DNA from: Eledone cirrhosa
Lineage: Eukaryota
NCBI GenBank assembly: GCA_964016885.1
Contig: OZ024746.1
Location: 44,516,001-44,580,000, forward strand
Length of the DNA stretch: 64,000 bases
Direction of reading: 5' to 3'
The position numbers were made by a program, and so were the translations under genes. The notes under the pieces were generated by a model. That model saw only the letters and a program-made list of their open reading frames with translations, did not search any database and had not been told where the DNA came from. Within the stretch, counting starts at the first letter, position 1. Each line of letters opens with the position of its first letter. Below are positions 4,501 through 56,436 of the stretch, one piece after another.

Positions 4501-5571
4501 TTACAAAAGATGCACAAAGATACAGTAATGGACTACACATTTCAGAAGTCCCATTTACTGCTGAAATGGAAAACACAGAAAAAGCAAAGCAGGTAAAAGT
4601 AACTGCAAAGAAAGAACTGCTACAGAAACTGGCTAAGAAATGGCAAGAAAAGTCTCTGTATGGCAAATACCCAGAGCGAGCTAACAATCCTGATGTTGAC
4701 AAAACTTTAACCCATCAGTGGTTGGCATCCTCTGGACTGAAATCGGAGACTGAAGGACTGATTATATCAGCACAAGATCAGTGTCTGCCAACAAAAAATT
4801 ACCAAGCCAACATAATAAAAAATGGATGCAGCCCATTATGCCGTGTATGCAAAAAACAACCAGAGACCATTGACCATATAATTTCAATGTGCAGTCCTAT
4901 AGCTCCAACCAAATACCTAAACAGGCATGACAGAGCTGCACAATACATACATTGGATAATGTGTAAGCATTTTGACCTGCCCCATCAAAAGAATTTGTGG
5001 GAGCATCAACCACCTCCCATACTTGAAAAAGATCACATCTCAATCTTGTGGAACTTTAGCATCCAAACAGACCGAAAAATAGATGCAAATAGACCTGATA
5101 TAATATTGAAGGACTTCAAAAAGAGGGTATGCCTGCTAATTGATATGTCTGTTCCAATAGACAAGAATGTATCTATAAAAACATTTGAAAAATTGAGCAA
5201 GTATAAGGACCTGGAGATAGAAATTGGAAAAATGTGGAAATTGAGAACTAAAACAATACCAGTGGTTGTAGGCGCTCTGGGAATGATATCTAAGGGGTCT
5301 AATGATTACTAATCGCAAATCCCAGGAAACCCGCGTATAGGAGAAATACAAAAGATAGTACTAATGGGAACTGCCCATATACAAAGGAAGATTCTGTCAA
5401 TATAAGTACATCACAAGTCTAAACACTAAAGGTGTATGTGTGAGTATGTATGTTCTTTCTTGAACATGGCGGACTTTGTTGTCTCTTGAGGTCACTGGTT
5501 GTGACTTGGTGATAACTCGTATGAACATAAAGCAAGATAAATGCAACTGTAATAATAATAATAATAATAAT
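1596..5571 (+). mobile_element. Near full-length R4/Dong-like non-LTR retrotransposon, family B (inactivated)
   Basis: Structured 5' leader, single RT+CCHC+RLE reading frame, short 3' UTR and (TAA)n tail at 5550-5571. Homologous to family A in protein but divergent in DNA. Confidence 0.9.
1757..5405 (+). pseudogene. RT + CCHC + restriction-like endonuclease polyprotein, disrupted
   Basis: Motifs WKSPG, NYRPITCL, GIFQGDSLSP, CRVCKKQPETIDHIISMC, RHD, RPDIILKD. Catalytic YMDD is changed to YMDN, there is a frameshift near 3363 and an in-frame stop at 5310-5312. The homologous C-terminus (LMGTAHIQRKILSI*) ends at 5405. Confidence 0.9.
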
Positions 5572-6306: not shown

Positions 6307-9300
6307 TCTAAGTCAGACATTCAAACATTGCATTACAATGAAACTTATGCTTATTCTTTTTTGTTTCTTTTTTTTCTGCCTGTTTGATTGTTTGTTTATT
6401 TATGTTCGTCTACAGCGTGATAGTGCCACACAAAAATCACCGGGAGTGACGAAAACAACGGAGGTGATGAAATCACCGGTGGTTATGTAACCATACATTC
6501 ACCAATCCTCGATAAGAGTGTTTCAATGTCGAACCTAAACAGTTCGAATAACGGTGAAGTGGAGACTAGAATGTCATGTGACAGACTCTCACCCAGCAGG
6601 TGCTCCCTGGCTCAGCAGCAGGGACCTGGCTGTCAACCAAATGCCGCTGGTGTCGGAGGAAGAAGAAGAAGGAAAGGGACCAGAACCAACTGGACGAAAG
6701 AATTGAATAGAACTGTTATGCAATGTTACCTGAAGAGTAACCCCAAGGAGAAAGGCTATAAGAAACGGATGCATAACATCTGGAACGAGATTGGTCTATT
6801 TAAATTAGATGAACAAAAATTGGCCGGGCAAGCTCGGGTAATAAGAACTAATGGGTGGGTAAGCGAGCTGGAACTGGAGGAAATGAGCAGAGAGACAAGC
6901 TTGGAAATGGAGGGTGGAGTATGCCAGGCAAACGAGCCAGTGGGAAATTAAGGTGAAGAGGTTGAGAGAACGGAGGAACCATCCGAAGCAGACAATGATC
7001 TGAATGCTGAAATAAATAATACCTGGAACAGAGATACGGCCATTGAGGGGATGAATGCTGACGGGCTAGGACAAGATTTGGTTGATATCCTAAACCTAGT
7101 GGTAGATGAATTGAACAATGATAGTGGGAAACCTATGAACCTAAGATTTGTAGACAGGAAAAAGTTAAAAGAAACAACAGCTAAGGTAAACAAAGTCATC
7201 CCATACCTTGAGGCGAGGAGCCTTCACCAGTGCAACATCTTAAAGCCACAGCAAATACGGTGAGGAAATTACATGGTATAAAAGCGAGAGGAAACAACAA
7301 ACAAGAAAGATCAGAGCCTTGGTGGAAGAAACGACTGAGTGGTCAAATCAGGGAAATGAGAAATGACATTGGATTGGAAAGCTTGAGTCCCTACTGAATG
7401 GGACACTAAAAAACATAGACACTCAAAATAGACTGGAAATAAAGTACAAAACTAGGAGGAAAAGTTTGAGGGGAAAGAAAGAGGCGGAACAAACTAAAAC
7501 ATCATGGAGAGGAATATGGGAGCAGGATGTTAAACATAATGACCAGGCAGTGTGGATTGAGACAGTACAGAAGGAGATTAGTGAACAGGCACACCAACAA
7601 ACTGACTTGAGTATCACAGTTGAAACTCTTAAGGGGCAGGCCAAAAAGCTAACCAACTGGAAATCACCAGGCCCAGATGGTGTGCAGGGGTATTGGATTA
7701 AAAATATAACATCCCTCCACCCAAAACTGACAACCATGTTCAATGACTGCTTGATGTCAGGTGAGGTACCAGAGTGGTTGAAAAAAGGTACCACAGTTCT
7801 GGTAATGAAGGACAGAATCAAGGGTAATGATGTTACTAACTATAGACCTATCACATGTCTGTCCGTAATGTGGAAACTGTCGACAAGCATTATTTCTGAG
7901 GAAATCTACCATCACATCCACACAAACAACTTGTTACCGGACGAACAGAAAGGATGCCGAAAGAAGTCCAGTGGTACAAAGGACCAGTTACTTATTGATA
8001 ATATGGTAATGAGGAATTGCAAGAGGCGACACACTGGTCTTGCCATGGGATGGATAGACTACAAAAAGGCATTTGACATGCTGCCTCATTCTTGGATCAC
8101 CAAAAGCCTAGAGATTTTCAAGGTGGCAGATAACATCAGACAGTTGTTGGGCAAAAGTATGAAGTCCTGGGAAACAGAGTTAACATCAGCTGGAGAATCC
8201 CTGGGAGGCGTGAAGATCAAGAGAGGTATCTTCCAGGGAGATAGTCTGTCCCCTCTGTTGTTTGTCCTTGCCCTCATGCCCCTGACCATTATACTGAGAA
8301 AAGTGAGAGCAGGATACAAGTTGGGAAAGGGAGAGCTTACCATCAATCACCTCCTCTTCATGGACGATCATTAAGCTCTTCGGGAGTAGCGAGAAGGAGT
8401 TGGATGTGCTTGTTGACATTATCCGTATTTTCAGGAATGATATATGTATGCAATTTGGTATTAGTAAGTGTGGAGTCCTTGTGATGAAGAGGGGTAAATT
8501 GAGCAGAAGCCACGGAATCCAGGTACCAACAGGTGAGATGATAAAGGAAATTGACACTGAAGTGCGGGAATTCTGAGATGGAATGTTGCTGAACAAAGAG
8601 AAATTGATAGGAAGACTAGGAACTTATTGACTATCAACAACATCTTCACAAGAGGAGTGCTGTCGATAGACTCTACTTAAGGAGAACTGAAGGTGGAAGA
8701 GATCTTATCAGCATAGAGGACTGTGTTCAGATGAAAAAAAAAACAACCTACACAAATACGTGACTGATAGTAAGGAGCCAATGCTCAGAACTGTACTGAA
8801 GGAGAGGACAATAGACCAGGGGATGTCCAGGGAGGAAATAACAACAAGGAGAAAGAGCAGCCTTCAGGAAAAATCCCTTCATAGTACCTTCTTTGAGAAA
8901 ACTGAATTCAGAGATCCACAGACATGGAACTGGTTGAAAAGAGGAGACCTTAAAAAGGCTACAGAAGGAATGTTAATGGCTGCGCAAGAGCAGGCCCTCA
9001 AAACGAAGTGGTTGAAACACCATATTTACAAGGAGGAGGTAGCCCACTGTGCAGGATCTGTGGAGAGAGAGAGGAGACTGTGGCTCACATTGTATCCGAG
9101 TGTAAACACCTAGCGCAGACTCACTATAAGGGCTGGAGACATGATGTGATGGGCAGGGTGATCCACTGGCACCTATGCAAAGTAAACAATTTACCACATT
9201 CTGAGAAGTGGTGTGAGCATAATCCAGAGTCGGTGATAGAAAACGATCAGTTGAAGGTGCTGTGGCATTTTAGGATACAGACGGACAAGAAACTGGAACA

Positions 9301-10492: not shown

Positions 10493-13400
10493 CTAAGTCA
10501 GACATTCGAATACTACATTACAATGAAACTTATGCTTATTCATTTTTGGGGCCCTTTCTGCCCGTGTGTTTGTTTGTTTATGTGTGTCCGTATACAGCGT
10601 GGTGATAATGCCACACAAGGGCCAAGTGGGATGGCGGATCCACAGATGGCTATGTAAACATACATTCGCCAATCCTCGATAAGAGTGTTTAAATATCGAA
10701 CATAAACAGTTCGAATAACGGTGAAATGGAGACTAGAACGTCATGTGACAGACTCTCACCCAACAGGTGCCCCCTGGCCCAGCAGCAGGAACCTGACTGT
10801 CAACGAAATACTGCTGATGTTGGAGGAAGAAGAAGAAGGAAAGGGGCCAGAACCAACTGGACGAAAGAATTGAATAGAACTGTTATGCAATGCTACCTGA
10901 AAAGTAACCCCAAGGAGAGGGGCTACAGGAGACGGATGCATAACATCTGGAACGAGATTGGTTTATTTAAATTAGATGAACAAAAATTGGCCGGGCAGGC
11001 TCGGGTAATAAGAACTAATGGGTGGATAAGCGAGCTGGAACTGGAGGAACTGAGCAGAGAGAATGGCTTGGAGATGGCGGGTGTAGTATGCCAGACAAGC
11101 GAGCCGGCGGGAAATGAAGGTGAGGAGGTCCTGAGAGCGGAGGAACCACCCGAAGCAGACAATGATCTGAATACTGAGATAAATAATACCTGGAACAGAG
11201 ATACGGCCACTGAGGAGATGAATGCTGACGGGCTAGGACAAGATTCGGTTGACATCCTAAATTTAGTGGTAGATGAGTTGAACAATGATAGTGGGAGACC
11301 TATGAACCTAAGATTTGTAGACAGGAAAAAGTTAAAAGAAACAACAGCTAAGGTAAACAAAGTCATCCCATACCTTGAGGCGAGGAGTCTTCACCAGTGC
11401 AACAATATCCTCAAAGCAACAGCAAATACGGTGAGGAAACTACTTGGTATAAAAGCGAGAGGAAACAACAGACAAGAAAGAGCAGAGCCGTGGTGGAAGA
11501 AGCGACTGAGTGGGCAAATCGGGGAAATGAGAAATGACATAGGAAAGCTTGAGTCACTACTGAATGGGACACTAAAAAACATAGGCACTAAAAATAGACT
11601 GGAAATAAAATACAAAACTAGGAGTAAAAAGCTAAATATTATCATAGAGGAATTGAAGCAACGCATTGTAGCAAAGAGTGCCAAAATCAGGCGATACGAG
11701 AACAGAGTCAGTCAGTATAAACAGAACCGCATGTTCGACAACAACCAGAAGATGCTGTTTGGACAGCTTGAGGGGAAAGAAAGAGGCACCGACTTGATCC
11801 CTGGGGCGGAACAAGCTAAAACATTCTGGAGAGGAATATGGGAGCAGGATGTTAGACACAATGCCCAGGCAGGGTGGATTGAGACAGTACAGAGGGAGAT
11901 CGGTGAGCAGGCACAGCAACAGACTGATTTGAGTATCACAGTTGAAACTCTTAAGGGGCAAGCCAAAAAACTAACCAACTGGAAATCACCAGGCCCAGAT
12001 GGTGTGCAGGGGTATTGGATTAAACATTTAACATCCCTCCACCCGAAGCTGACGGCCATGTTCAATGACTGCTTGGTGTCGGGTGAGGTGCCAGAGTGGT
12101 TGACAAAAGGTACCACAGTTCTGATAATGAAAGACCGAATCAAGGGTAATGATGTTACCAACTATAGACCTATCACATGTCTGCCCGTAATGTGGAAACT
12201 GTTGACGAGCATTGTGTCTGAGGAAATCTACCATCACCTCCACACAAACAACTTGTTGCCGGACGAACAGAAAGGATGCCGAAAGAAGTCACGTGGTACA
12301 AAGGACCAGTTGCTTATTGATAAGATGGTAATGGGGAATTGCAGGAGGAGACACACTGATCTTGCCATGGGATGGATAGACTACAGAAAGGCATTTGACA
12401 TGGTGCCTCATTCCTGGATCACCAAAAGCCTGGAGATCTTCAGGGTGGCAGATAACATCAGAGAGTTGCTGGGCAGGAGTATGGGGTCCTGGGAGACAGA
12501 GTTGACATCAACTGGAGTATCCTTGGGAAGCGTGAAGATCAAGAGAGGTATCTTCCAGGGAGATAGCCTGTCCCCTCTGTTGTTTGTCCTTGCCCTGATG
12601 CCCTTGACCATTATGCTGCGAAAAGTGAGAGCAGGATACAAGTTGGGAAGGGGAGAGCTTACCATCAATCACCTCCTCTTCATGGACGATCTTAAGCTCT
12701 TCGGGAAAAGTGAGAAGGAGTTGGATGTGCTTGTTGACACTGTCCGTATTTTCAGCAGTGATATATGTATGCAGTTTGGTATTGGTAAATGTGGAGTCAT
12801 TGTGATGAGGAGGGGTAGGTTGAGCAGAAGTAACGGGATCCAGATACCAACAGGTGAGATGATAAAGGAAATTGACTCTGAGGAAGGATACAAGTATTTG
12901 GGCGTTCTGGAGGCTGATGGCATAAAGAACAAAAAAATGAAGGAATTGTTAAGAACTGAATACATTCGGAGAGTAAGGAGCGTATTGAAGTCACATCTGA
13001 ACAGCAGAAATGCCATAAGCGCAGTAAATTCCCGAGCTGTGTCTATTATTAGGTACAGTGCGGGAATTCTGAGATGGAATGTTGCTGAACAAAAAGAAAT
13101 GGATAGGAAGACTAGGAAGCTATTGACTATCTACAACATGTTCCACAAGAGGAGTGATGTCGATAGACTCTACCTAAGGAGATCTGAGGGTGGAAGAGGT
13201 CTTATCAGCATAGAGGACTGTGTTCAGATGGAGAAAAACAACCTATACAAATACGTGACCTATAGTAAGGAGCCAATGCTCAGAGCTGTACTGAAGGAGG
13301 GGAGAGTAGGCCAGGGGATACCCAAGGAGGAAATAACATCAAGGAGGAAGAGCAGCCTTAAGGGAAAATCCCTTCATAGTACCTTCTTTGAGAAAACTGA

Positions 13401-14231
13401 ATTTAGAGATCCACAGACATGGAACTGGTTGAGAAGAGGAGACCTCAAAAAGGCTACAGAAGGAATGCTAATGGCTGCGCAGGAGCAGGCCCTCAAAACG
13501 AAGTGGTTGAAGCACCATATCTACAAGGAGGAGGCTAGCCCACTGTGCAGGATCTGTGGAGAGAGAGAGGAGACTGTGGCTCACATTGTGTCCGAGTGTA
13601 AACACCTAGCCCAGACCCACTATAAGGGCTGGAGACACGATGTGATGGGCAGGGTGATCCACTGGCACCTGTGCAAAGTAAACAATCTACCACATTCTGA
13701 GAAATGGTATGAGCATAGGCCAGAGGCGGTGATGGAGAACAGTCAGGTGAAGGTGCTGTGGGATTTTAGGATACAGACGGACAAAAAACTGGAACACAAT
13801 AGACCTGACCTGGTGGTTGTGGACAAAGAAAAAAGATCGTGCCTGATTGTGGATGTGGCCTGCCCGTTCGACACGAGAGTGCAAGAGAAGGAGAGGGAGA
13901 AAATTAACCGATACCAGGACCTAAAGTGGGAGGTGAAAAGGATTTGGAACTGCCATGAAGTCAAAGTGATCCCGATTGTCATAGGCGCACTGGGGACTAT
14001 CTCCAAAGGTTTCCAGGGATGGTTAAAGAAAATCGGCCCCTTCACGCTTTTTGGAACGCTTCAAAAGGCATGCTTGCTTGGAACGGCAAGAACCCTCCGA
14101 TACGTCCTGAATATCTGAGGCTGCAGGTAGTGGCTTGATATTCAATCCAACGGACTTTCCAGTTAACCAACATCAATGACTGAGATTCAAGGAATAACAA
14201 TAACAATAATAATAATAATAATAATAATAAT
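10493..14231 (+). mobile_element. R4/Dong-like family A copy A3, coding-intact
   Basis: Leader shared with A2, uninterrupted ORF, ~75-nt 3' UTR and (TAA)n tail at ~14193-14231. The 5' boundary is uncertain. Confidence 0.92.
10726..14118 (+). CDS. Reverse transcriptase + CCHC zinc knuckle + restriction-like endonuclease (R4/Dong clade), 1130 aa
   Basis: WKSPGPDG, NYRPITCL, DYRKAFD, RGIFQGDSLSP, FMDD, YKYLG, CRICGEREETVAHIVSEC, RHD and RPDLVVVDK..IVDVACP are all intact. No APE domain. Confidence 0.95.
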   Translation: METRTSCDRLSPNRCPLAQQQEPDCQRNTADVGGRRRRKGARTNWTKELNRTVMQCYLKSNPKERGYRRRMHNIWNEIGLFKLDEQKLAGQARVIRTNGWISELELEELSRENGLEMAGVVCQTSEPAGNEGEEVLRAEEPPEADNDLNTEINNTWNRDTATEEMNADGLGQDSVDILNLVVDELNNDSGRPMNLRFVDRKKLKETTAKVNKVIPYLEARSLHQCNNILKATANTVRKLLGIKARGNNRQERAEPWWKKRLSGQIGEMRNDIGKLESLLNGTLKNIGTKNRLEIKYKTRSKKLNIIIEELKQRIVAKSAKIRRYENRVSQYKQNRMFDNNQKMLFGQLEGKERGTDLIPGAEQAKTFWRGIWEQDVRHNAQAGWIETVQREIGEQAQQQTDLSITVETLKGQAKKLTNWKSPGPDGVQGYWIKHLTSLHPKLTAMFNDCLVSGEVPEWLTKGTTVLIMKDRIKGNDVTNYRPITCLPVMWKLLTSIVSEEIYHHLHTNNLLPDEQKGCRKKSRGTKDQLLIDKMVMGNCRRRHTDLAMGWIDYRKAFDMVPHSWITKSLEIFRVADNIRELLGRSMGSWETELTSTGVSLGSVKIKRGIFQGDSLSPLLFVLALMPLTIMLRKVRAGYKLGRGELTINHLLFMDDLKLFGKSEKELDVLVDTVRIFSSDICMQFGIGKCGVIVMRRGRLSRSNGIQIPTGEMIKEIDSEEGYKYLGVLEADGIKNKKMKELLRTEYIRRVRSVLKSHLNSRNAISAVNSRAVSIIRYSAGILRWNVAEQKEMDRKTRKLLTIYNMFHKRSDVDRLYLRRSEGGRGLISIEDCVQMEKNNLYKYVTYSKEPMLRAVLKEGRVGQGIPKEEITSRRKSSLKGKSLHSTFFEKTEFRDPQTWNWLRRGDLKKATEGMLMAAQEQALKTKWLKHHIYKEEASPLCRICGEREETVAHIVSECKHLAQTHYKGWRHDVMGRVIHWHLCKVNNLPHSEKWYEHRPEAVMENSQVKVLWDFRIQTDKKLEHNRPDLVVVDKEKRSCLIVDVACPFDTRVQEKEREKINRYQDLKWEVKRIWNCHEVKVIPIVIGALGTISKGFQGWLKKIGPFTLFGTLQKACLLGTARTLRYVLNI

Positions 14232-25462: not shown

Positions 25463-25466
<4 letters not shown>

Positions 25467-25591
25467 GAACAAGTATGACCCCGACGGCAGCCGTCGGGGT
25501 CATACTTGTTCCTATTACCCACTCTACCACCCTAAGTATTGAGTACTTTGGTGCGTTATGGTCCATCTGGTTCCTTACCACATTTCCTTCG

Positions 25592-25593
<2 letters not shown>
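25463..25593 (+). mobile_element. Mini fold-back element (26-bp perfect arms + 78-nt tail) in (TA)n
   Basis: ataggaacaagtatgaccccgacggc-a-gccgtcggggtcatacttgttcctat. The tail is shared with the 31084 and 43021 copies. Confidence 0.85.
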
Positions 25594-25641
<48 letters not shown>

Positions 25642-31083: not shown

Positions 31084-31291
31084 TAGAAAAAGAGTCAGGA
31101 CCTCGACGGCTGAGCTCCGGTCGTTTCGACAGCTAGATCTGAACTGGTTCAGATCTAGTTGTTGAAAGGGCCGGAGCTCACAATCGGGTCATGACTCTTT
31201 TCCTATTATCCACTCTACTACTCTAAGTATCGAGTACTCTGGTGCGTTATGGTCCACATGGTTACTTACCACACTTCCTTCGTTCGGATAA
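31084..31291 (+). mobile_element. Mini fold-back element (~60-bp arms + tail), diverged copy of the 25463/43021 family
   Basis: Arms centred on agatctgaac-tg-gttcagatct. Shared tail ...gagtactctggtgcgttatggtcc...ttccttcgtt, then (TA)n. Confidence 0.8.
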
Positions 31292-43020: not shown

Positions 43021-43024
<4 letters not shown>

Positions 43025-43220
43025 AACGAGTAGGACCCCGACGGCTGTGCTGAAGCCGTTTCGACAGCTAATTCTGGATTAAATTTAGATTTAGATTTAG
43101 TCCAGAATTAGCCGTCGAAACGGCTTGAGCTCAGCCGTCGGAGTCCTACTCTACTACCCTAAGTATTGAGTACTTTGGTGCGTTATGGTCCATCTGGTTC
43201 CTTACCACATTTCCTTCGTT
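43021..43220 (+). mobile_element. Mini fold-back element (51-bp arms + tail) containing a hammerhead 3' half, in (TA)n
   Basis: 43028-43078 is the reverse complement of 43101-43151 (4 mismatches). GAAA-CGGCT..AGCCG-TC at 43117-43139. Tail nearly identical to the 25463 copy. Confidence 0.85.
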
Positions 43221-43225
43221 ATATA

Positions 43226-44129: not shown

Positions 44130-44200
44130 ATATATATATAAAATATTAAACAAATAATGAATAAACAATGAAAACAGTTCCTTATATTAAACAAAAAAAG

Positions 44201-44354
44201 TTCATTATTTAACGATCGTTTCTAGGATATATATGTGTTAGAATTGGCATGCATATTCAACAGATCTATGTACAAAATTATACAAAATTATACAAACTAT
44301 CAAGATTAAATATACATACCAACACATATATACGCCGTCTTCAGAAATAATGAA
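44201..44354 (-). ncRNA. Type I hammerhead ribozyme motif with long stem II (mirror copy)
   Basis: Reverse complement of 56086-56239. Confidence 0.75.
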
Positions 44355-44987
44355 ATATATTTATTGATAATAACAACAATTCAAAATTTCAGGTCCGTTT
44401 GGGAACAAAATTGACCAATGAAAATACAAAAGGTTTAATGCAGTTCGGTGTGTGTATATACATGTAACTACCCTTACACATATTTTACAAAAATGTATGC
44501 ACAACTTGTATACGCATACGAAAAGGATGGATGCAAATACAAAATTTCAAGGTTAATGTCTCTGTAAGTTTATAATGCACAGATAAGATGCGTATAGACA
44601 CATAAATATGAAATAAGTGTATATACATATTTTCATACTCACTCATATCCGTACAATCACACATACACACACATAAACTACGAACATACAAACACACACA
44701 CACCCCCACTCATATATATATATGTGGATATAAAATCCTAAGCACATGGATATTAATTCACTCACATAAACATTGGCACACACATTTAGATCAAGATACA
44801 GAAATTAGGTGGGAGGGGGGGAGAGGTCAGTATTCAACTGTTTGGGCAGACTGCTTAATATAGATGTATCTATAAACTAAGAAAATAAAAAATAATAAAT
44901 AATAAATAAACATTAAAAAGGAAAGAAAAGAAAAAGAAAAAGAAAAAGAAAAAGAAAAAAGAAAAAAGAAAAAAGAAATATATCAAG

Positions 44988-45037
<50 letters not shown>

Positions 45038-45227
45038 TGTATATATATATATATATATATACATACACGTACATACACACATATATATACACATACACAC
45101 ATACAAACACATACATACATATACACACATCCACACTTAGAACATACATACACACACATATATAAACATATACATATACACACATACATACATATACACA
45201 CATACATATAAATACACATATATAAAT

Positions 45228-45294
<67 letters not shown>

Positions 45295-45581
45295 CACTCA
45301 TACATACACATATAATCACACATACTATATAGACACACATATATATACACACATACACGCACATATACATACACTTACATACATATATACATACAGATAT
45401 ACACATACATACCTATATATACACACAAATACATACAGACATACATACATACATACAGACAAATACTTAGGCATCTATATATCGGTATATACATACAAAC
45501 ACCACTACACTCTCACACAACTCAGACATACAAAGAAAAAGGTATATATCTATACACATATACATATACAAATAGAGAAAC

Positions 45582-45613
<32 letters not shown>

Positions 45614-45852
45614 ATATATATATATACATATATATATACATATACATACATATACACATATACACACATACACATACATACACATACATACATGTACACA
45701 CACATAGATATATATACACATACACACATACACACATACATATTTAGTCATACACACACATACACCTACACGAACATACACATACACATATATAAAGATA
45801 TATATACACACACACACACACATACACACACACACATATATATAAAAAATGA

Positions 45853-45895
<43 letters not shown>

Positions 45896-46807
45896 TACAT
45901 ACATATACATACACACATACATAGACATATATGTACATACATACACATACATAGATACATACACACACATACATACATATATATATACACACATAGACAT
46001 ATACTTACATACACACACAACATACATACACACATATATACTCATACATAGAATTAGATATATAATCATACATACATACGCACTTACATATACTCATATA
46101 TACAAATACATACGCATCCATATATGCGTATATACATAGAAACACCACTACACCCTCACCCAACTCAGACATACAAAGAAAAAGGCATATACATATACAT
46201 ATATACACGCATTAATAGAGATATATATACACATATATATATATATATATATACACACACATACACTTATATATATATACTCACACCCACATACAACCAA
46301 AAATACACATACAAACACCCACATATACATATATATACACATATATATATATACACACACATAAAAAACAGACATGCACATATATATTTTTTTACACACA
46401 TATATACACATATATATACATATACACACCCTCACATATACACACATACACATAAGTTATATTATAATAATAAATAATATATATATATAACACATACATA
46501 TATACATATATATATATACATATATATACATATATATATATACACATACGAATATAGACATATATACGCACATAGATACACATATATATATATATACACA
46601 TACATATACACACACACATATACACACTCACATATACATGTGTGTGCACACACACATATATACACATACACACATATGCACATAAACACATATATGTGTA
46701 TACATGCGCACACACACATATATCCACATAGATACGAAGATAGACATATAAATAGAGAGACATACATATATATACACACACACACATATACATACATACA
46801 TACACAC

Positions 46808-46858
<51 letters not shown>

Positions 46859-48200
46859 CATATACACATACACACATACACATACACATATATATACACA
46901 CATGCATATATACACATATACACATACATACACACACATATATATACACACACAATCTTACATTCTTATTTGCATGCGCATATATGTATTTTTATATTCA
47001 GATATAAATACCCAAACATATATACACCTACCTACATATATATTCATACATACACGCCTACAAAGACAGAAGGTAGTAGTATGGGGGAAAGGGGGGGGGT
47101 TGGAGAAGGGGATTATAGTAAATATATGTTTCAAGAAACATAGAATATTATCCGTATCAGGATCCAATGTATATTTTTTTACATAGTTTCAGTGTTAGGA
47201 AATACAATAAACAAGAAATAAGGCAAAATTTATGCATTTCAAAATAAATAAGTATACCATTAAATTATATGTTAACTAAACTAAAGATAGTTAACATATT
47301 GATTTCTAAGGTGTAAATTAGTTAGGTTTATAATATTTGAAGCAGAATTTTGAAGTTAAATAGTAGTAGAGTATTAATTATAGTATAACTAAATTAAAAT
47401 TAATAACGTTATGGTATCAATATTAGGAACTGAATTTAGTAATAGGGAAAAAACAAATAAGTATTACATCGGTAGTAGAATATAAATTATAGGTTAACTA
47501 AATTAAAAATTATATATTTATTTCTATAGTATATGTTAATTAGGTATATAATAAATAAAACAGATATTGTATTTTATCAATAGCAGAATATAATTATATG
47601 CAAATAGAAATCAAAATTAATACATATACATATACATATACATACACATATATATATACACATATATATACATATATATATACACATATACACATATACA
47701 CACACACACACATACACATACACATATACATATACATATTTTTTCAAAAATTGCAAAGAATATATTAACTAGGTATATATCCAAAACACATCCCATTCCA
47801 TGATTACATGACATTCTGCAATTCGTCTGTATAAGGATACTAATTTTAAGCCAATTAAATTAAATTTTTAGGTTGATTAAAATTAAAACCAAATTATAAA
47901 TATATTTCTAAAATGTATATTAATAAGGTCTATAATACTAAAAATTAATTCTCTGTCATTGGATACACGATATTTTGTTATATTTTATCTGTAAAAGAAT
48001 TATAATAAAAGGTTTAAATAAATTAAAATTAATCTATAAATTAAATTACTAAGTATATATTAGTAATATTTAAAGGTTTTTCACAATTTATGATTACATA
48101 ATATTTTATATTCTCATCTGTAATAGAATTTTAATTAAATTAAATTTATAGGTTAACTAACATTTAAATTAAAATTAAATTAATTTCTAAAATAATGTTA

Positions 48201-50196
48201 TTAATTAGGTTTATAATATTTAAATGTTTTTTTTAGTTTATGATTACACGATATAATTAATTCCTGTCGTTTATTTAATAGGATATCCTTAGATTTCATT
48301 ATTTCAAATAGTTCTTGGGAACATAATCTACATTCATTTCTATTATTTTGATAAGGGGTGGCTCTTTTGAGCACACTCCAGGTCAAATCATATTCTATAT
48401 TCTTATTTTTATAAATATTGATTTTTTCTGCTAGAGATGTTGTATTAGCCAGTGCGGCATTTTTAAAACTATGCTTGTGGGTATTAAACCTTGTCTTAAA
48501 ATTGTTAGAGGTAGCTCCTATATATGAGCAAATAGAATCTTTAGTTTTAACATTACATTTATAGACTATGTTGTTAACAAGACAATTCCCTTTTAATGGG
48601 CAGTTTGCTTTGTTTCTACAGTTACAACCTTTCGTTAATTTTGTATTTGAGGAGATATTATGGTTAATTTGATGTACTGGTGGTATACTTATGGTTTTCT
48701 TACATTTATATGCATTATAGGCACTTATATTTTGTTTTATGTTATTTGTTGTAGAATATGAGAATTTAACTGTAGACCTATTTAAGATTTGATGGTATTT
48801 GTGGTTTGGCGGGAAGTTTTTCTCTAGGATATAAAAAAATTTTTTAGCAATATTATCCTTAATTTGTAAATTAAATGGAGCATTATACCAAGTAACCCGT
48901 CTATTACGGTTTCTATGTTGTTTATTATTTTTATTATTTTTATAGGTTGTATCGTGATTTTTACTAGGAGGATTAATGTTAATGATCTCACCACAACCAT
49001 TTTTAGTTATATTTGTAGATTTAGGTGTTTTATCCTTTTTATTAGGAGTTTTATTATTAATATTTATTAGAGTTGTATGATGAGTAGTTTTTTGAGAGTT
49101 ACTATACTTTATATTAGAAGATTTGGTATTTTGGGGTATAGTGTGGGTGGCATTTAGGTGTGTACTTTTCATTTGGTGTTTGTTGGTAATATTAGGTTGT
49201 ATGCTTTCAGTATTTTTAGTAGAAGGTATATATTCTAATCTATTTTTGTGGCCACTTCTATCTAGAGATTCGTTATAGAAGGTAGCATTTTTATCAAATA
49301 CATCTTGGTTAGAAGAAAGGTTAGAAATTCTAAGTGATATATTATATGCAAGGTTTTTAAGGATAGATTTAGGGTGATTAGATTGTGAGTGTATGTAATG
49401 TAAGTTTTGGTTTGGTTTATGGTAAGGTTGGTAGATACCCGTAGCTAAATCTAAAGTTATATCTAGGAAATTTACTACTTTACTTGTTTTTTCAAAAGTA
49501 ATATTAAGATTATAATAGTCTTTAAGGAAAGTTCTAATATGTTTTTTGTTTTTTTCAATTTCTGAAAGGCTAAGGTTGTTAGAAAGAAGAAGACAGTCAT
49601 CACGATATAAACCACCTTTGAGGTGGGGAAAGGAGGCATTTATGTTGAAAAGGAGAAAGAGGCCCACAAGATCAGTAATTTGGGCGGAATCGCTTGAACC
49701 CATAGTAATATCAAATAGATTACTATATGTGTTTCTGGTCCAGTATTCATTCTGAAATTCAATAAGTGTTAGTCTAGCATGTGTAATAATATTAATGTCA
49801 TCCAAAGTTAAGTTAGATCTATTTTTAGCAAATATCGATGCTTTGTTCAGGAGTATAGGTGATATAGAAGAATAGTAATTATCTATATCAAATTGTAGAA
49901 ATGAAGCAGAAGATTTACATCTAATATTTTTAAACCAGTTAATTACCTGGGAGGTGTTTTCCCAGAGTGGTAAAATAACGTGTTTTCTTATTTGTGGGAT
50001 GACTCTATCCAAAATTTTTTTGCTAATTATTCCAATATCTGATTTGGAGGGACATATAAGTCTAATAGAAGGATTTGAGTTAAAATTTGATTTATGATCC
50101 TTCAGGTTGAAGTGTGGTCTTTTCAATGCCAAAGGTTCAGTTCTATCTTCAATGTTTAGTTTTTTTACTATGTTGTGTGTTTTGTTGTTGATGTTG
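48201..50196 (-). CDS. Penelope-like (Naiad-type) RT + GIY-YIG endonuclease, 5'-truncated, open frame
   Basis: FDIDNYYSSI, ITMGSSDSAQ, LYRDD, FLDITLDL, SNHP, WYNAPF, CNCRNKANCPLKGNCL, IVYK...YIGAT...FKTRF..H. Three aa differences from the right-arm copy. Confidence 0.9.
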
Positions 50197-52241
50197 ATAA
50201 AGAACTCAGAAAAAATTATAAAAAATCTAATAATGCGTCACTCACCAACATCAACAACAAAACACACAACATAGTAAAAAAACTAAACATTGAAGATAGA
50301 ACTGAACCTTTGGCATTGAAAAGACCACACTTCAACCTGAAGGATCATAAATCAAATTTTAACTCAAATCCTTCTATTAGACTTATATGTCCCTCCAAAT
50401 CAGATATTGGAATAATTAGCAAAAAAATTTTGGATAGAGTCATCCCACAAATAAGAAAACACGTTATTTTACCACTCTGGGAAAACACCTCCCAGGTAAT
50501 TAACTGGTTTAAAAATATTAGATGTAAATCTTCTGCTTCATTTCTACAATTTGATATAGATAATTACTATTCTTCTATATCACCTATACTCCTGAACAAA
50601 GCATTGATATTTGCTAAAAATAGATCTAACTTAACTTTGGATGACATTAATATTATTACACATGCTAGACTAACACTTATTGAATTTCAGAATGAATACT
50701 GGACCAGAAACACATATAGTAATCTATTTGATATTACTATGGGTTCAAGCGATTCCGCCCAAATTACTGATCTTGTGGGCCTCTTTCTCCTTTTCAACAT
50801 AAATGCCTCCTTTCCCCACCTCAAAGGTGGTTTATATCGTGATGACTGTCTTCTTCTTTCTAACAACCTTAGCCTTTCAGAAATTGAAAAAAACAAAAAA
50901 CATATTAGAACTTTCCTTAAAGACTATTATAATCTTAATATTACTTTTGAAAAAACAAGTAAAGTAGTAAATTTCCTAGATATAACTTTAGATTTAGCTA
51001 CGGGTATCTACCAACCTTACCATAAACCAAACCAAAACTTACATTACATACACTCACAATCTAATCACCCTAAATCTATCCTTAAAAACCTTGCATATAA
51101 TATATCACTTAGAATTTCTAACCTTTCTTCTAACCAAGATGTATTTGATAAAAATGCGACCTTCTATAACGAAGCTCTAGATAGAAGTGGCCACAAAAAT
51201 AGATTAGAATATATACCTTCTACTAAAAATACTGAAAGCATACAACCTAATATTACCAACAAACACCAAATGAAAAGTACACACCTAAATGCCACCCACA
51301 CTATACCCCAAAATACCAAATCTTCTAATATAAAGTATAGTAACTCTCAAAAAACTACTCATCATACAACTCTAATAAATATTAATAATAAAACTCCTAA
51401 TAAAAAGGATAAAACACCTAAATCTACAAATATAACTAAAAATGGTTGTGGTGAGATCATTAACATTAATCCTCCTAGTAAAAATCACGATACAACCTAT
51501 AAAAATAATAAAAATAATAAACAACATAGAAACCGTAATAGACGGGTTACTTGGTATAATGCTCCATTTAATTTACAAATTAAGGATAATATTGCTAAAA
51601 AATTTTTTTATATCCTAGAGAAAAACTTCCCGCCAAACCACAAATACCATCAAATCTTAAATAGGTCTACAGTTAAATTCTCATATTCTACAACAAATAA
51701 CATAAAACAAAATATAAGTGCCTATAATGCATATAAATGTAAGAAAACCATAAGTATACCACCAGTACATCAAATTAACCATAATATCTCCTCAAATACA
51801 AAATTAACGAAAGGTTGTAACTGTAGAAACAAAGCAAACTGCCCATTAAAAGGGAATTGTCTTGTTAACAACATAGTCTATAAATGTAATGTTAAAACTA
51901 AAGATTCTATTTGCTCATATATAGGAGCTACCTCTAACAATTTTAAGACAAGGTTTAATACCCACAAGCATAGTTTTAAAAATGCCGCACTGGCTAATAC
52001 AACATCTCTAGCAGAAAAAATCAATATTTATAAAAATAAGAATATAGAATATGATTTGACCTGGAGTGTGCTCAAAAGAGCCACCCCTTATCAAAATAAT
52101 AGAAATGAATGTAGATTATGTTCCCAAGAACTATTTGAAATAATGAAATCTAAGAATATCCTATTAAATAAACGACAGGAATTAATTATATCGTGTAATC
52201 ATAAACTAAAAAAAACATTTAAATATTATAAACCTAATTAA
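50192..52241 (+). CDS. Penelope-like (Naiad-type) RT + GIY-YIG endonuclease, 5'-truncated, open frame
   Basis: Same motifs as the left arm. CxCx5C-P-x-G-x-C before the GIY-YIG and a C-terminal CxLC..E..LLNKR fit the Naiad clade. The ORF-track start at 50175 lies in the inverted arm and is not a natural start. Confidence 0.9.
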
Positions 52242-53582
52242 TAACATTATTTTAGAAATTAATTTAATTTTAATTTAAATGTTAGTTAACCTATAAATTT
52301 AATTTAATTAAAATTCTATTACAGATGAGAATATAAAATATTATGTAATCATAAATTGTGAAAAACCTTTAAATATTACTAATATATACTTAGTAATTTA
52401 ATTTATAGATTAATTTTAATTTATTTAAACCTTTTATTATAATTCTTTTACAGATAAAATATAACAAAATATCGTGTATCCAATGACAGAGAATTAACTT
52501 TTAGTATTATAGACCTAATTAATATACATTTTAGAAATATATTTATAATTTGGTTTTAATTTTAATCAACCTAAAAATTTAATTTAATTGGCTTAAAATT
52601 AGTATCCTTATACAGACGAATTGCAGAATGTCATGTAATCATGGAATGGGATGTGTTTTGGATATATACCTAGTTAATATATTCTTTGCAATTTTTGAAA
52701 AAATATGTATATGTATATGTGTATGTGTATGTGTGTGTGTGTGTATATGTGTATATGTGTATATATATATGTATATATATGTGTATATATATATGTGTAT
52801 GTATATGTATATGTATATGTATTAATTTTGATTTCTATTTGCATATAATTATATTCTGCTATTGATAAAATACAATATCTGTTTTATTTATTATATACCT
52901 AATTAACATATACTATAGAAATAAATATATAATTTTTAATTTAGTTAACCTATAATTTATATTCTACTACCGATGTAATACTTATTTGTTTTTTCCCTAT
53001 TACTAAATTCAGTTCCTAATATTGATACCATAACGTTATTAATTTTAATTTAGTTATACTATAATTAATACTCTACTACTATTTAACTTCAAAATTCTGC
53101 TTCAAATATTATAAACCTAACTAATTTACACCTTAGAAATCAATATGTTAACTATCTTTAGTTTAGTTAACATATAATTTAATGGTATACTTATTTATTT
53201 TGAAATGCATAAATTTTGCCTTATTTCTTGTTTATTGTATTTCCTAACACTGAAACTATGTAAAAAAATATACATTGGATCCTGATACGGATAATATTCT
53301 ATGTTTCTTGAAACATATATTTACTATAATCCCCTTCTCCAACCCCCCCCTTTCCCCCATACTACTACCTTCTGTCTTTGTAGGCGTGTATGTATGAATA
53401 TATATGTAGGTAGGTGTATATATGTTTGGGTATTTATATCTGAATATAAAAATACATATATGCGCATGCAAATAAGAATGTAAGATTGTGTGTGTATATA
53501 TATGTGTGTGTATGTATGTGTATATGTGTATATATGCATGTGTGTATATATATGTGTATGTGTATGTGTGTATGTGTATATG

Positions 53583-53637
<55 letters not shown>

Positions 53638-54541
53638 GTGTGTATGTATGTATGTATATGTGTGTGTGTGTATATATATGTATGTCTCTCTATTTATATG
53701 TCTATCTTCGTATCTATGTGGATATATGTGTGTGTGCGCATGTATACACATATATGTGTTTATGTGCATATGTGTGTATGTGTATATATGTGTGTGTGCA
53801 CACACATGTATATGTGAGTGTGTATATGTGTGTGTGTATATGTATGTGTATATATATATATATGTGTATCTATGTGCGTATATATGTCTATATTCGTATG
53901 TGTATATATATATGTATATATATGTATATATATATATGTATATATGTATGTGTTATATATATATATTATTTATTATTATAATATAACTTATGTGTATGTG
54001 TGTATATGTGAGGGTGTGTATATGTATATATATGTGTATATATGTGTGTAAAAAAATATATATGTGCATGTCTGTTTTTTATGTGTGTGTATATATATAT
54101 ATGTGTATATATATGTATATGTGGGTGTTTGTATGTGTATTTTTGGTTGTATGTGGGTGTGAGTATATATATATAAGTGTATGTGTGTATATATATATAT
54201 ATATGTGTATATATATCTCTATTAATGCGTGTATATATGTATATGTATATGCCTTTTTCTTTGTATGTCTGAGTTGGGTGAGGGTGTAGTGGTGTTTCTA
54301 TGTATATACGCATATATGGATGCGTATGTATTTGTATATATGAGTATATGTAAGTGCGTATGTATGTATGATTATATATCTAATTCTATGTATGAGTATA
54401 TATGTGTGTATGTATGTTGTGTGTGTATGTAAGTTTATGTCTATGTGTGTATATATATATGTATGTATGTGTGTGTATGTATCTATGTATGTGTATGTAT
54501 GTACATATATGTCTATGTATGTGTGTATGTATATGTATGTA

Positions 54542-54608
<67 letters not shown>

Positions 54609-54853
54609 TCATTTTTTATATATATGTGTGTGTGTGTATGTGTGTGTGTGTGTGTATATATATCTTTATATATGTGTATGTGTATGTTCGTGTAGGTGTA
54701 TGTGTGTGTATGACTAAATATGTATGTGTGTATGTGTGTATGTGTATATATATCTATGTGTGTGTACATGTATGTATGTGTATGTATGTGTATGTGTGTA
54801 TATGTGTATATGTATGTATATGTATATATATATGTATATATATATATATATAT

Positions 54854-54885
<32 letters not shown>

Positions 54886-55172
54886 GTTTCTCTATTTGTA
54901 TATGTATATGTGTATAGATATATACCTTTTTCTTTGTATGTCTGAGTTGTGTGAGAGTGTAGTGGTGTTTGTATGTATATACCGATATATAGATGCCTAA
55001 GTATTTGTCTGTATGTATGTATGTATGTCTGTATGTATTTGTGTGTATATATAGGTATGTATGTGTATATCTGTATGTATATATGTATGTAAGTGTATGT
55101 ATATGTGCGTGTATGTGTGTATATATATGTGTGTCTATATAGTATGTGTGATTATATGTGTATGTATGAGTG

Positions 55173-55219
<47 letters not shown>

Positions 55220-55381
55220 ATTTATATATGTGTATTTATATGTATGTGTGTATATGTATGTATGTGTGTATATGTATATGTTTATATATGTGTGTGTATG
55301 TATGTTCTAAGTGTGGATGTGTGTATATGTATGTATGTGTTTGTATGTGTGTATGTGTATATATATGTGTGTATGTACGTG

Positions 55382-55451
<70 letters not shown>

Positions 55452-56436
55452 CTTGATATATTTCTTTTTTCTTTTTTCTTTTTCTTTTTCTTTTCTTTCC
55501 TTTTTAATGTTTATTTATTATTTATTATTTTTTATTTTCTTAGTTTATAGATACATCTATATTAAGCAGTCTGCCCAAACAGTTGAATACTGACCTCTCC
55601 CCCCCTCCCACCTAATTTCTGTATCTTGATCTAAATGTGTGTGCCAATGTTTATGTGAGTGAATTAATATCCATGTGCTTAGGATTTTATATCCACATAT
55701 ATATATGTGAGTGGGGGTGAGTGTGTGTTTGTATGTTCGTAGTTTATGTGTATGTTTATGCATATACGCGTGTGTATGTGTGATTGTACGGATATGAGTG
55801 AGTATGAAAATATGTATATACACTTATTTCATATTTATGTGTCTATACGCATCTTATCTGTGCATTATAAACTTACAGAGACATTAACCTTGAAATTTTG
55901 TATTTGCATCCATCCTTTTCGTATGCGTATACAAGTTGTGCATACATTTTTGTAAAATATGTGTAAGGGTAGTTACATGTATATACACACACCGAACTGC
56001 ATTAAACCTTTTGTATTTTCATTGGTCAATTTTGTTCCCAAACGGACCTGAAATTTTGAATTGTTGTTATTATCAATAAATATATTTCATTATTTCTGAA
56101 GACGGCGTATATATGTGTTGGTATGTATATTTAATCTTGATAGTTTGTATAATTTTGTATAATTTTGTACATAGATCTGTTGAATATGCATGCCAATTCT
56201 AACACATATATATCCTAGAAACGATCGTTAAATAATGAACTTTTTTTGTTTAATATAAGGAACTGTTTTCATTGTTTATTCATTATTTGTTTAATATTTT
56301 ATCTTGACTCTGTATACCGTTTATCTTTCACCGAAAGTGATTTTTCATTACATCTCTTCTTTCCATGATATCCGGAATACATTGAGTTCTTCATACGGAT
56401 TGGACACTACCGTAAACTCTTGGTAGATTTATCTAC
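50197..56436 (+). mobile_element. Right arm of palindromic Naiad-type element, with 49-bp central spacer and unpaired 3' tail
   Basis: Spacer 50197-50245, arm 50246-56302, tail 56303-56436 ending atctac before (TA)n. Confidence 0.93.
56086..56239 (+). ncRNA. Type I hammerhead ribozyme motif with ~115-nt stem II
   Basis: Stem I ttcattattt (56086-95)/aaataatgaa (56230-39); CTGAAGA at 56096-56102; GAAA at 56218-21; palindromic stem III CGATCG; predicted cleavage triplet GUU. Confidence 0.75.

What the first reader, a model, noticed from the sequence alone, without database searches (positions are those of the whole stretch)
43021..43220. Hammerhead-derived fold-back mini-elements: ribozyme helices as snap-back points
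Seen: the right arm carries a hammerhead 3' half, namely hairpin (gacagctaattctgga/tccagaattagccgtc) - GAAA (43117-20) - 6-bp stem III with 7-nt loop - GTC (43137-39). Where CUGAnGA should lie there is instead an inverted copy of the downstream sequence. Three copies (25463, 31084, 43021) share a tail and TA flanks but fold at putative stem II or stem III. Established: Penelope-like elements carry type I hammerheads and often insert with inverted repeats plus a tail. Inference: nascent cDNA folds on a ribozyme helix and self-primes second-strand synthesis, giving MITE-like palindromes of retro origin. I am not aware of this link being described, but have not searched the literature.
Basis: partly seen in the sequence, partly recalled or inferred. 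Interest (0 to 1): 0.85.

Follow-up and report, generated by a model that had tools for sequence, protein, structure and literature searches.

The report
Penelope palindromes fused at RNA caps
These short palindromes are stunted insertions of an abundant Penelope-like retrotransposon; their two arms were likely reverse-transcribed separately, each likely running off the capped start of the element's RNA before being joined, which would explain how these elements make their inverted-plus-tail insertions.

Summary
The three palindromes are real. They are 5'-truncated insertions of a Hydra-clade Penelope-like element (RT plus C-terminal GIY-YIG), roughly 9x10^4 copies by a rough sample. Long copies carry a complete type I hammerhead with a U3-A8 core (UUGAnAA).

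The snap-back mechanism is not supported as the main route. Most arms end at one base, +1 (TT|AGTY), not at a helix loop. An untemplated G sits there in 20 of 21 and 32 of 36 single-base junctions, against 0 of 18 at a control position. That G lies on the tail arm in 10 loci and on the tail-less arm in 9. The tail-less arm often reaches further 5' than the tail arm (34 against 7).

Best reading: both target strands prime reverse transcription at two fixed sites (+61, +140) in the 5' UTR. Both cDNAs run off the capped transcription start, which lies inside stem II, so the CUGA half is missing, and they are end-joined head to head. Stem III gives microhomology for a minority class (337 loci).

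The inverted-plus-tail architecture and two start sites are published. The cap-run-off twin-priming evidence was not found in ten literature searches. No RNA data were available.

The parts
43021..43084 (-). Focal copy, tail-less arm (arm A): element positions +61 to -4, antisense; outer end TTCCTA at the (TA)n
43085..43094 (.). Junction insertion TTAGATTTAG, a repeat of the adjacent ATTTAG (templated-insertion type)
   Evidence: reading it as end-joining is inference
43095..43221 (+). Focal copy, tail-bearing arm (arm B): element -4 to +140, with a 17-nt deletion between ACTC repeats after 43151 that removes site A
43097..43102 (+). TT|AGTC, inferred transcription start; +1 = A at 43099; the family-wide hot spot of arm ends
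43106..43143 (+). 3' half of the type I hammerhead: stem II 3' strand, GAAA 43117-43120, stem III, GUC cleavage triplet 43137-43139, stem I 3' strand
43152..43221 (+). One-sided tail between sites A (+61) and B (+140), ending TTCGTTA at (TA)n; part of the 5' UTR of the parent
25464..25594 (+). Second copy: both arms end at about +34 to +36 (stem III 3' strand), site A at 25509-25514, full tail
   Evidence: (as L114)
31084..31285 (+). Third copy (subfamily 3): tail-less arm ends at +1 (CTGAACT, 31139-31145), tail arm starts at about +1/+2
   Evidence: (as L141)

Best explanation
These are minimal insertions of a Hydra-clade Penelope-like retrotransposon in (TA)n, and each was likely made by twin target-primed reverse transcription from two fixed sites (+61 and +140) in the element's 5' UTR, with both cDNAs likely running off the capped transcription start (+1) and then likely being end-joined head to head. 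Steps: (1) Shown: the parent has an RT-GIY-YIG ORF starting at +232 and a ~700-nt 3' UTR that reads into a complete hammerhead; nearly every head-to-head insertion has one arm ending at +61 and one at +140. (2) Inferred, by analogy with the in vitro PAc system: the endonuclease cuts both strands of (TA)n and each 3' end primes at one site, each site reading TAT. (3) Shown: arm ends pile up at +1 and carry an untemplated G on either arm. Inferred: this G is the copied cap, so +1 is an internal RNA polymerase II start. (4) Because +1 lies inside stem II, RNA starting there holds only the 3' half of the ribozyme, which accounts for the missing core box. Long arms would come from the downstream repeat of read-through RNA. 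(5) Inferred: host end joining links the two cDNA ends (blunt, microhomology or templated insertions); stem III and its palindromic GAGCTC loop supply microhomology in a minority. (6) Weaker inference (about 0.55): one RNA molecule templates both arms.
For: Parent: GIY-YIG fragment upstream of the same arm in L015; 150 of 150 scored EN matches from 48,986 candidates; long RT-EN ORFs; Atlas neighbours carry RVT_1 and GIY-YIG; in-frame ATG in all 21 copies where the motif was found among 30 UTR-selected loci. Arm ends: in 98 insertions with both arms mapped (of 138), 75 tail-less arms end between -5 and +9 and 5 between +22 and +35; stop rate 0.30 per nt at +1/+2 against 0.004-0.01 at +10 to +35. 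Genome-wide, 2925 exact +1..+32 arms have a non-parental base at -1 and 3711 have T; 832 run exactly through -19..+15. Extra G: 20 of 21 single-base inserts in the first 50 of 454 loci; 32 of 36 in the first 50 of 52 subfamily-3 loci, where 10 of 13 three-base inserts read C-N-G; control at +12, 0 of 18; Fisher p 3e-10 and 8e-11. G on the tail arm 10, on the tail-less arm 9, 1 unclear of 20. The same stop holds in subfamily 3, whose apical stem II sequence differs. Copies that reach about +1, jump into the UTR/ORF and, in L175 and L199, stop near +1 again. Long EN-bearing arms end at A in 20, B in 10, other 4 of 34. One tail per head-to-head pair in 74 of 76. Literature: extra G as cap mark and twin priming for L1 (PMC11702581, passages); both strands cut and extended from two internal sites bounding the tail (PMC11167929); internal Penelope promoter in the pseudo-LTR (PMC2377424).
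Against: No RNA evidence: the start site and cap are read from DNA only. The two arms share their subfamily haplotype in 33 of 33 pairs (9.9 expected if independent), which fits one RNA but equally fits one arm copied from the other or gene conversion. The strict one-A-one-B pairing is also what fold-back plus cleavage at site A would give. In the stem III class the loop follows the tail arm in 15 of 22 resolved loci (p 0.13), a lean towards fold-back. The focal copy itself ends at -4 on both arms with a 10-nt insert, so it does not show the cap G. Arm asymmetry (34 against 7) could partly come from later deletions in unstable palindromes, and the arm-end mapping was automated with hand rules for ends at -1 to -7. 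No DPE match at +28 to +32 (my reading against a recalled consensus). A 12-kb palindrome of another family in this window has near-symmetric long arms with a sense spacer, compatible with fold-back.
Confidence: 0.78

Rival explanations
1. One reading: one cDNA primed at the tail end folds back on a hammerhead helix and self-primes the second arm, which is then trimmed at site A (for example by the endonuclease).
For: 337 loci are joined exactly at stem III; 29 of the first 50 keep the native loop, 15 of 22 in tail-arm orientation. Arms share haplotype in 33 of 33 pairs. One tail per pair in 74 of 76. Craig et al. 2021 attribute the tail to EN-mediated resolution (passage). The 12-kb palindrome at 44138-56302 has a 49-nt sense spacer and short microhomology.
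Against: Main junctions have one base between perfect arms, and the extra G lies on the tail-less arm in 9 of 19. Tail-less arm longer in 34 against 7. Long EN-bearing arms lack the tail in 20 of 34, and in several (L032, L037-L039, L044) the tail sits on a shorter inverted arm. Apical stem II product only 11 loci. 7 of 22 stem III loops come from the tail-less arm and 21 of 50 are zero-loop GAGCTC joints.
Confidence: 0.08
2. Twin priming is right, but +1 is an RT pause or an RNA processing site rather than a capped start, and the extra base is terminal-transferase activity.
For: +1 lies in the 3' strand of the apical part of stem II in subfamily 2. No RNA data. 3711 arms have T at -1 and 12 of 98 tail-less arms end at -1 to -5.
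Against: The extra base is G-specific and absent at the +12 control (0 of 18). The stop is unchanged in subfamily 3 with a different apical sequence. The ribozyme cut would be after +41, and an AG splice acceptor would put the boundary at +3.
Confidence: 0.1
3. The mini-palindromes are a non-autonomous family that spreads as whole units from master copies, so centres are inherited.
For: Some junctions recur, for example arm-S-arm at +1 in 20 of 50 loci.
Against: The recurring junction appears on several different arm haplotypes, with G on either arm, and in a separate subfamily. Junctions in 98 insertions are very diverse. Long copies have the same A and B ends.
Confidence: 0.03
4. A MITE of a DNA transposon inserting at TA.
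For: Terminal-looking inverted repeat, TA flanks, high copy number.
Against: Asymmetric fixed ends with a one-sided tail, variable centres, and direct continuity with an RT-GIY-YIG ORF.
Confidence: 0.01

Closest known systems
Hydra clade of C-terminal EN+ Penelope-like elements (Craig et al. 2021, PMC8557442; section 11 and passages read)
   Same: RWK-like motif (RWR), DKT, CxCX5C linker, CxxC and CxH around the EN end, C-terminal EN, unit about 2.8-3.1 kb, (TA)n target, hammerhead in the pseudo-LTR, inverted 5'-truncated copy plus one-sided tail.
   Different: The paper describes a small number of families; here roughly 9x10^4 copies (rough sample). The tail is 79 nt rather than 30-40. The core is U3-A8. 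Most copies consist of 5' UTR only.
PAc (Poseidon of Anolis carolinensis) in vitro mechanism (Frangieh et al. 2024, PMC11167929; main text read)
   Same: Both target strands cut and extended; two internal RT start sites bounding the tail; AT-rich target; uncleaved ribozyme in the template.
   Different: PAc sites lie inside the ORF and are said to lack homology to the target; here both lie in the 5' UTR and read TAT. The paper found no start-site difference between strands and does not address inverted arms, caps or the transcription start; here one A and one B arm pair in 74 of 76 cases.
L1 twin priming and cap-derived extra G (PMC11702581; passages read)
   Same: Two cDNAs from opposite target ends joined by NHEJ or MMEJ; extra G at the 5' end of complete cDNAs.
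   Different: In L1 the second cDNA primes at variable internal sites next to the first cDNA's end, so arms barely overlap. Here both start sites are fixed and both arms cover the same sequence, which gives a palindrome.
Penelope-like hammerheads, including the U3-A8 variant of Schistosoma Cercyon (Cervera and de la Pena 2014, PMC4209133; results and discussion read)
   Same: Type I motif in the pseudo-LTR, short stem I, G10.1-C11.1 pair, U3-A8 core, palindromic loop III.
   Different: Here stem III is a full 5-6 bp and stem II is very long and contains the inferred transcription start. The focal subfamily has CUGAGAA, which breaks the 3-8 pair as aligned.

Membership tests
Penelope-like element (EN+) | Single ORF with RT and GIY-YIG endonuclease | tested here: met
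   ORFs with YRDD and VIY...YIG motifs; BLASTP to a second Penelope-type ORF, E 1e-7; Atlas clusters with RVT_1 and GIY-YIG. Direct Pfam and PDB searches found nothing.
Penelope-like element (EN+) | Pseudo-LTR tandem or inverted arrangement with one-sided tail | tested here: met
   L015, L051, L059 and others
Penelope-like element (EN+) | RT phylogeny within the Penelope-like/telomerase group | not tested
   No reference set of named elements was at hand; no tree was built
Hydra clade | RWK motif and DKT in place of DKG | tested here: met
   KRLRWRTF and HSDKTGN in L059; RW[KR] and DKT/DKS conserved in homologues
Hydra clade | CxCX5C linker, no CCHH, CxxC and CxH around conserved E and N | tested here: met
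   CNCPDRSTC, CNLCSEE and CKH; absence of CCHH judged by eye
Hydra clade | Insertion into (TA)n | tested here: met
   TA repeat follows the tail in 47 of 49 random and bystander copies
Type I hammerhead ribozyme (long copies) | Core boxes with a 3-8 pair, GAAA, and NUH site | tested here: met
   48 of 54 complete copies UUGAnAA with position 7 free; GAAA and UC required by the search
Type I hammerhead ribozyme (long copies) | Three helices with covariation | tested here: met
   93% of cells paired in 16 copies; 3 stem II pairs with changes on both sides; stems I and III show none. The changes separate subfamilies, so they are few events. L015 folds as the three-way junction; L306 and L329 fold less cleanly.
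Type I hammerhead ribozyme (long copies) | Self-cleavage after GUC | not testable with these tools
   Needs an in vitro assay
Type I hammerhead ribozyme (window mini-copies) | 5' core box and stem I/II 5' strands | tested here: not met
   Absent in all three window copies; they cannot form the ribozyme alone
MITE / DNA transposon | Symmetric fixed terminal inverted repeats and a transposase parent | tested here: not met
   One-sided tail, variable centre, RT parent
Retrozyme (non-autonomous hammerhead retroelement) | Tandem direct units with complete ribozymes | tested here: not met
   Mini-copies are inverted and hold half a ribozyme; the definition is from abstracts in search listings

The most novel reading that the evidence does not exclude
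Penelope-like elements insert by obligate twin priming: a protein dimer on one RNA uses two fixed start sites, one per target strand, and the inverted repeat and tail of the whole class are the direct product. The promoter sits inside the ribozyme's stem II, so the mRNA 5' end carries a disarmed half-ribozyme, and initiation at the 5' copy yields cap-terminated strong-stop cDNAs that become about 10^5 MITE-like palindromes. Many 'MITE' or 'unknown hairpin' repeats in aquatic invertebrate genomes would then be such products.
Probability: 0.45. Interest if true: 0.75.

Novelty: new variant of a known kind. Interest (0 to 1): 0.6.

Why it matters
How Penelope-like elements form inverted repeats with a one-sided tail is named as unresolved in Craig et al. 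2021 (passage), and the 2024 in vitro study leaves the later steps unvalidated. This family gives tens of thousands of natural products whose junctions discriminate between models: a cap-type G on either arm means both arms are primary cDNAs. It predicts an exact transcription start, can be tested in an existing in vitro system with capped RNA, and warns that abundant hairpin repeats in TA microsatellites may be misfiled as MITEs. Such palindromes in transcripts would also be a large source of double-stranded RNA (inference, untested).

Tried and rejected
Rfam scan of the window: no hammerhead among the 150 listed of 153 hits. Pfam on the EN fragment and long ORFs, and a PDB profile search: no significant match. 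A DNA search with one very common tail returned 0 candidates; an exact pattern was used instead.

Retrovirus-like strand transfer keeping the cap G: none of the first 100 of 832 arms running through -19..+15 has G at -1; a seamless transfer stays possible. The 17-nt deletion in the focal tail arm looked like proof that the left arm was not copied from the right, but only 3 exact copies exist, so it may be post-insertion slippage; I do not rely on it. The first-100 base count at -1 (G 50, C 43, A 7) was ambiguous because the partner arm often supplies that base; the symmetric-junction test replaced it. Ribozyme-cleaved RNA as template (ends at +42): no clear peak. The first arm-mapping script overran junctions and was redone; 2 duplicate rows of 140 were dropped. 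The script mislabelled A ends as '?'; I read the printed ends by eye, and a few loci are counted twice.

I guessed from sequence style that the host might be a cephalopod and used that as one literature term; this was not tested. Earlier-findings look-ups returned nothing. Literature searches showed no paper linking Penelope-like inverted insertions to twin priming, strong-stop cDNA or cap copying, judged from listings and from the papers I opened. [quoted passage not shown]

Full report
1. Observation. The three copies exist at 25464-25594, 31084-31285 and 43021-43221. Each is an inverted repeat followed by a shared tail, in TA-rich flanks; the tails are 97% and 90% identical to the focal one. 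The 'stem II hairpin' it names is the insertion's own inverted repeat. Rfam showed no hammerhead in the listed hits.

2. The family. The window lies in a 3.0-Gb assembly (G000). A search with the focal right arm gave 60 matches from 40 scored of 635 candidates. Eighty evenly placed 10-kb stretches held 25 tails, about 9x10^4 genome-wide as a rough figure. One exact 47-nt tail variant occurs 1808 times. A TA repeat follows the tail in 47 of 49 random and bystander copies.

3. The parent. In L015 the same arm lies downstream of a GIY-YIG fragment and a ~700-nt 3' UTR. That fragment has 48,986 candidates in the genome, 150 scored and all matching. Long copies encode RT followed by the endonuclease. 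Pfam and PDB did not recognise the ORF. The Atlas places it next to RVT_1 and GIY-YIG clusters, and it aligns weakly to another Penelope-type ORF. It has RWR, DKT, CxCX5C, CxxC and CxH, the motifs that define the Hydra clade in Craig et al. 2021 (section 11), together with the (TA)n target. An in-frame ATG at +232 is present in all 21 copies where the motif was found among 30 UTR-selected loci. The mini-copies therefore consist of 5' UTR only.

4. The ribozyme. Fifty-four complete copies read stem I, YUGAnAA, long stem II, GAAA, stem III, UC, stem I: 48 UUGAnAA, 5 CUGAGAA, 1 UUGAUGA. In 16 aligned copies from three subfamilies, 93% of cells pair and three stem II pairs change on both sides; these changes separate subfamilies and so are few events. 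L015 folds as the three-way junction, two others less cleanly. The U3-A8 core is known from a Schistosoma Penelope-like element (Cervera and de la Pena 2014). Activity is untested.

5. Fixed outer ends. Arms end at site A (+61, TTCCTA) or site B (+140, TTCGTTA or TTTGTTA); in the parent both sites continue TAT. In sets not selected for the tail, 74 of 76 head-to-head pairs have exactly one tail; one B+B is a cross-pair of neighbours and one is unclear (ends read by eye, a few loci double-counted). Long endonuclease-bearing arms end at A in 20, at B in 10, elsewhere in 4 of 34. This matches the two internal start sites that bound the tail in the PAc assay (Frangieh et al. 2024).

6. Where the arms stop. 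Of 138 insertions (tail-selected, random and bystander; 2 duplicates dropped), 98 had both arms mapped. Tail-less arms end between -5 and +9 in 75, and between +22 and +35 in 5; the stop rate is 0.30 per nt at +1/+2 against 0.004-0.01 at +10 to +35. Tail arms end between -5 and +9 in 52. The tail-less arm reaches more than 10 nt further in 34, the tail arm in 7 (p 2.5e-5). Genome-wide, 2925 exact +1..+32 arms have a non-parental base at -1 and 3711 have T; 832 run exactly through -19..+15. Subfamily 3 stops at the same TT|AGT although its apical stem II differs (the TTAGTT was part of the pattern). TTAGTY resembles the arthropod initiator consensus (recalled); I saw no DPE match. Penelope has an internal promoter in its pseudo-LTR (Schostak et al. 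2008, passages and discussion).

7. The extra G. Where both arms reach +1 with 1-5 nt between them (454 loci), 21 of the first 50 have one base, and 20 of these are a C:G pair, where the parent would give T:A. In subfamily 3, 32 of 36 single inserts are C:G and 10 of 13 three-base inserts read C-N-G (first 50 of 52 loci). At +12, which has the same geometry, 0 of 18 are C:G (first 50 of 51 loci); Fisher p 3e-10 and 8e-11. In the 20 fetched loci the G belongs to the tail arm in 10, the tail-less arm in 9, and is unclear in 1, on several haplotypes. An extra G marks cap copying in L1 insertions (PMC11702581, passage). I infer that both arms are primary cDNAs that reached a capped 5' end. Several copies reach about +1, jump to an internal position, and in L175 and L199 stop near +1 again.

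8. Testing snap-back. The product predicted for the apical stem II helix occurs at 11 loci; the basal stem II product was not counted. Stem III joints occur at 337 loci: of the first 50, 29 keep the native loop and 21 join through the palindromic GAGCTC. Among 25 native-loop loci fetched, the loop follows the tail arm in 15, the tail-less arm in 7, and 3 were ambiguous to the script. Fold-back of a tail-bearing cDNA cannot give the 7, nor a zero- or one-base loop, nor an arm longer than its template. Two cDNA ends annealing, or a later deletion, at helix-derived microhomology gives all classes. Junction types in the 98 insertions: microhomology 30, blunt 9, 1-4-nt insert 18, longer insert 41; many long inserts repeat adjacent arm sequence (by eye), as in the focal copy.

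9. Results against this reading. Arms share their haplotype in 33 of 33 pairs, which does not separate one RNA from copying or conversion. The A+B pairing fits fold-back plus cleavage too. The stem III orientation leans to the tail arm (p 0.13). The focal 17-nt deletion is rare (3 exact copies) and proves nothing. No cap-retaining strand transfer was seen. No RNA run was listed. The 12-kb palindrome of another family in the window is compatible with fold-back.

10. Mechanism. Shown: parent, ends A and B, hot spot at +1, G on either arm, half ribozyme. Inferred: double-strand cut in (TA)n, priming at A and B on opposite strands, run-off at a capped start inside stem II, host end joining. Weakly inferred: a single RNA template. 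Overall confidence 0.78.

11. Novelty. The inverted 5'-truncated copy, the tail, microsatellite targeting, the ribozyme and the two start sites are published. Ten searches showed no paper on cap run-off or twin priming for these elements, and the PAc paper does not discuss them. Older subscription papers and all supplements were not seen. Verdict: new variant of a known kind, interest 0.6.

Noticed in passing
window 44138-56302 (+ about 135 nt to the right): A 12-kb head-to-head palindrome (arms 98% identical, differences mostly gaps) of another Hydra-type element: ORF 50160-52238, 46% and 41% identical to L052 over two stretches. Left end at (TA)n, one-sided ~135-nt tail then (AT)n on the right, 49-nt sense spacer at the centre. 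Same architecture at large scale; its symmetric long arms fit fold-back or one truncated RNA; an assembly artefact is not excluded.
   Followed up: partly
L175, L178, L179, L188, L194, L197, L199: Copies in which a cDNA reaches about +1 and then continues from an internal UTR/ORF position (template jump); L178 and L179 share the same jump point.
   Followed up: partly
L128:1381-1486, L306, L059, L066: The focal subfamily's ribozyme core reads CUGAGAA (C3 with A8, or a one-base-shifted core), in 5 of 54 complete copies.
   Followed up: no
L030: Chimeric palindrome: this family's outer ends and tail, but both inner arms from a different sequence with its own GAAA motif that also occurs in flanks of L005, L007 and L350; possibly a second hammerhead-bearing family.
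   Followed up: no
L001-L006, L008, L009, L012, L013, L021, L320, L326: Various small deletions in the tail arm at or just after site A, between short CTA/ACTC repeats.
   Followed up: partly
window 162-21392: Several long LINE-like repeats with (AAT)n 3' ends (near 460, 9684, 14192, 21064) and RT-like ORFs at 1757-3364, 3546-5309, 7367-8371 and 10693-14115.
   Followed up: no
L054:6715-8001, L057:218-2050, L058:6570-8000: Other Penelope-type ORFs of different clades next to copies of this family.
   Followed up: no
L118, L122, L136, L003: Junctions filled with facing A and T runs between arms that end at -2/-3.
   Followed up: no
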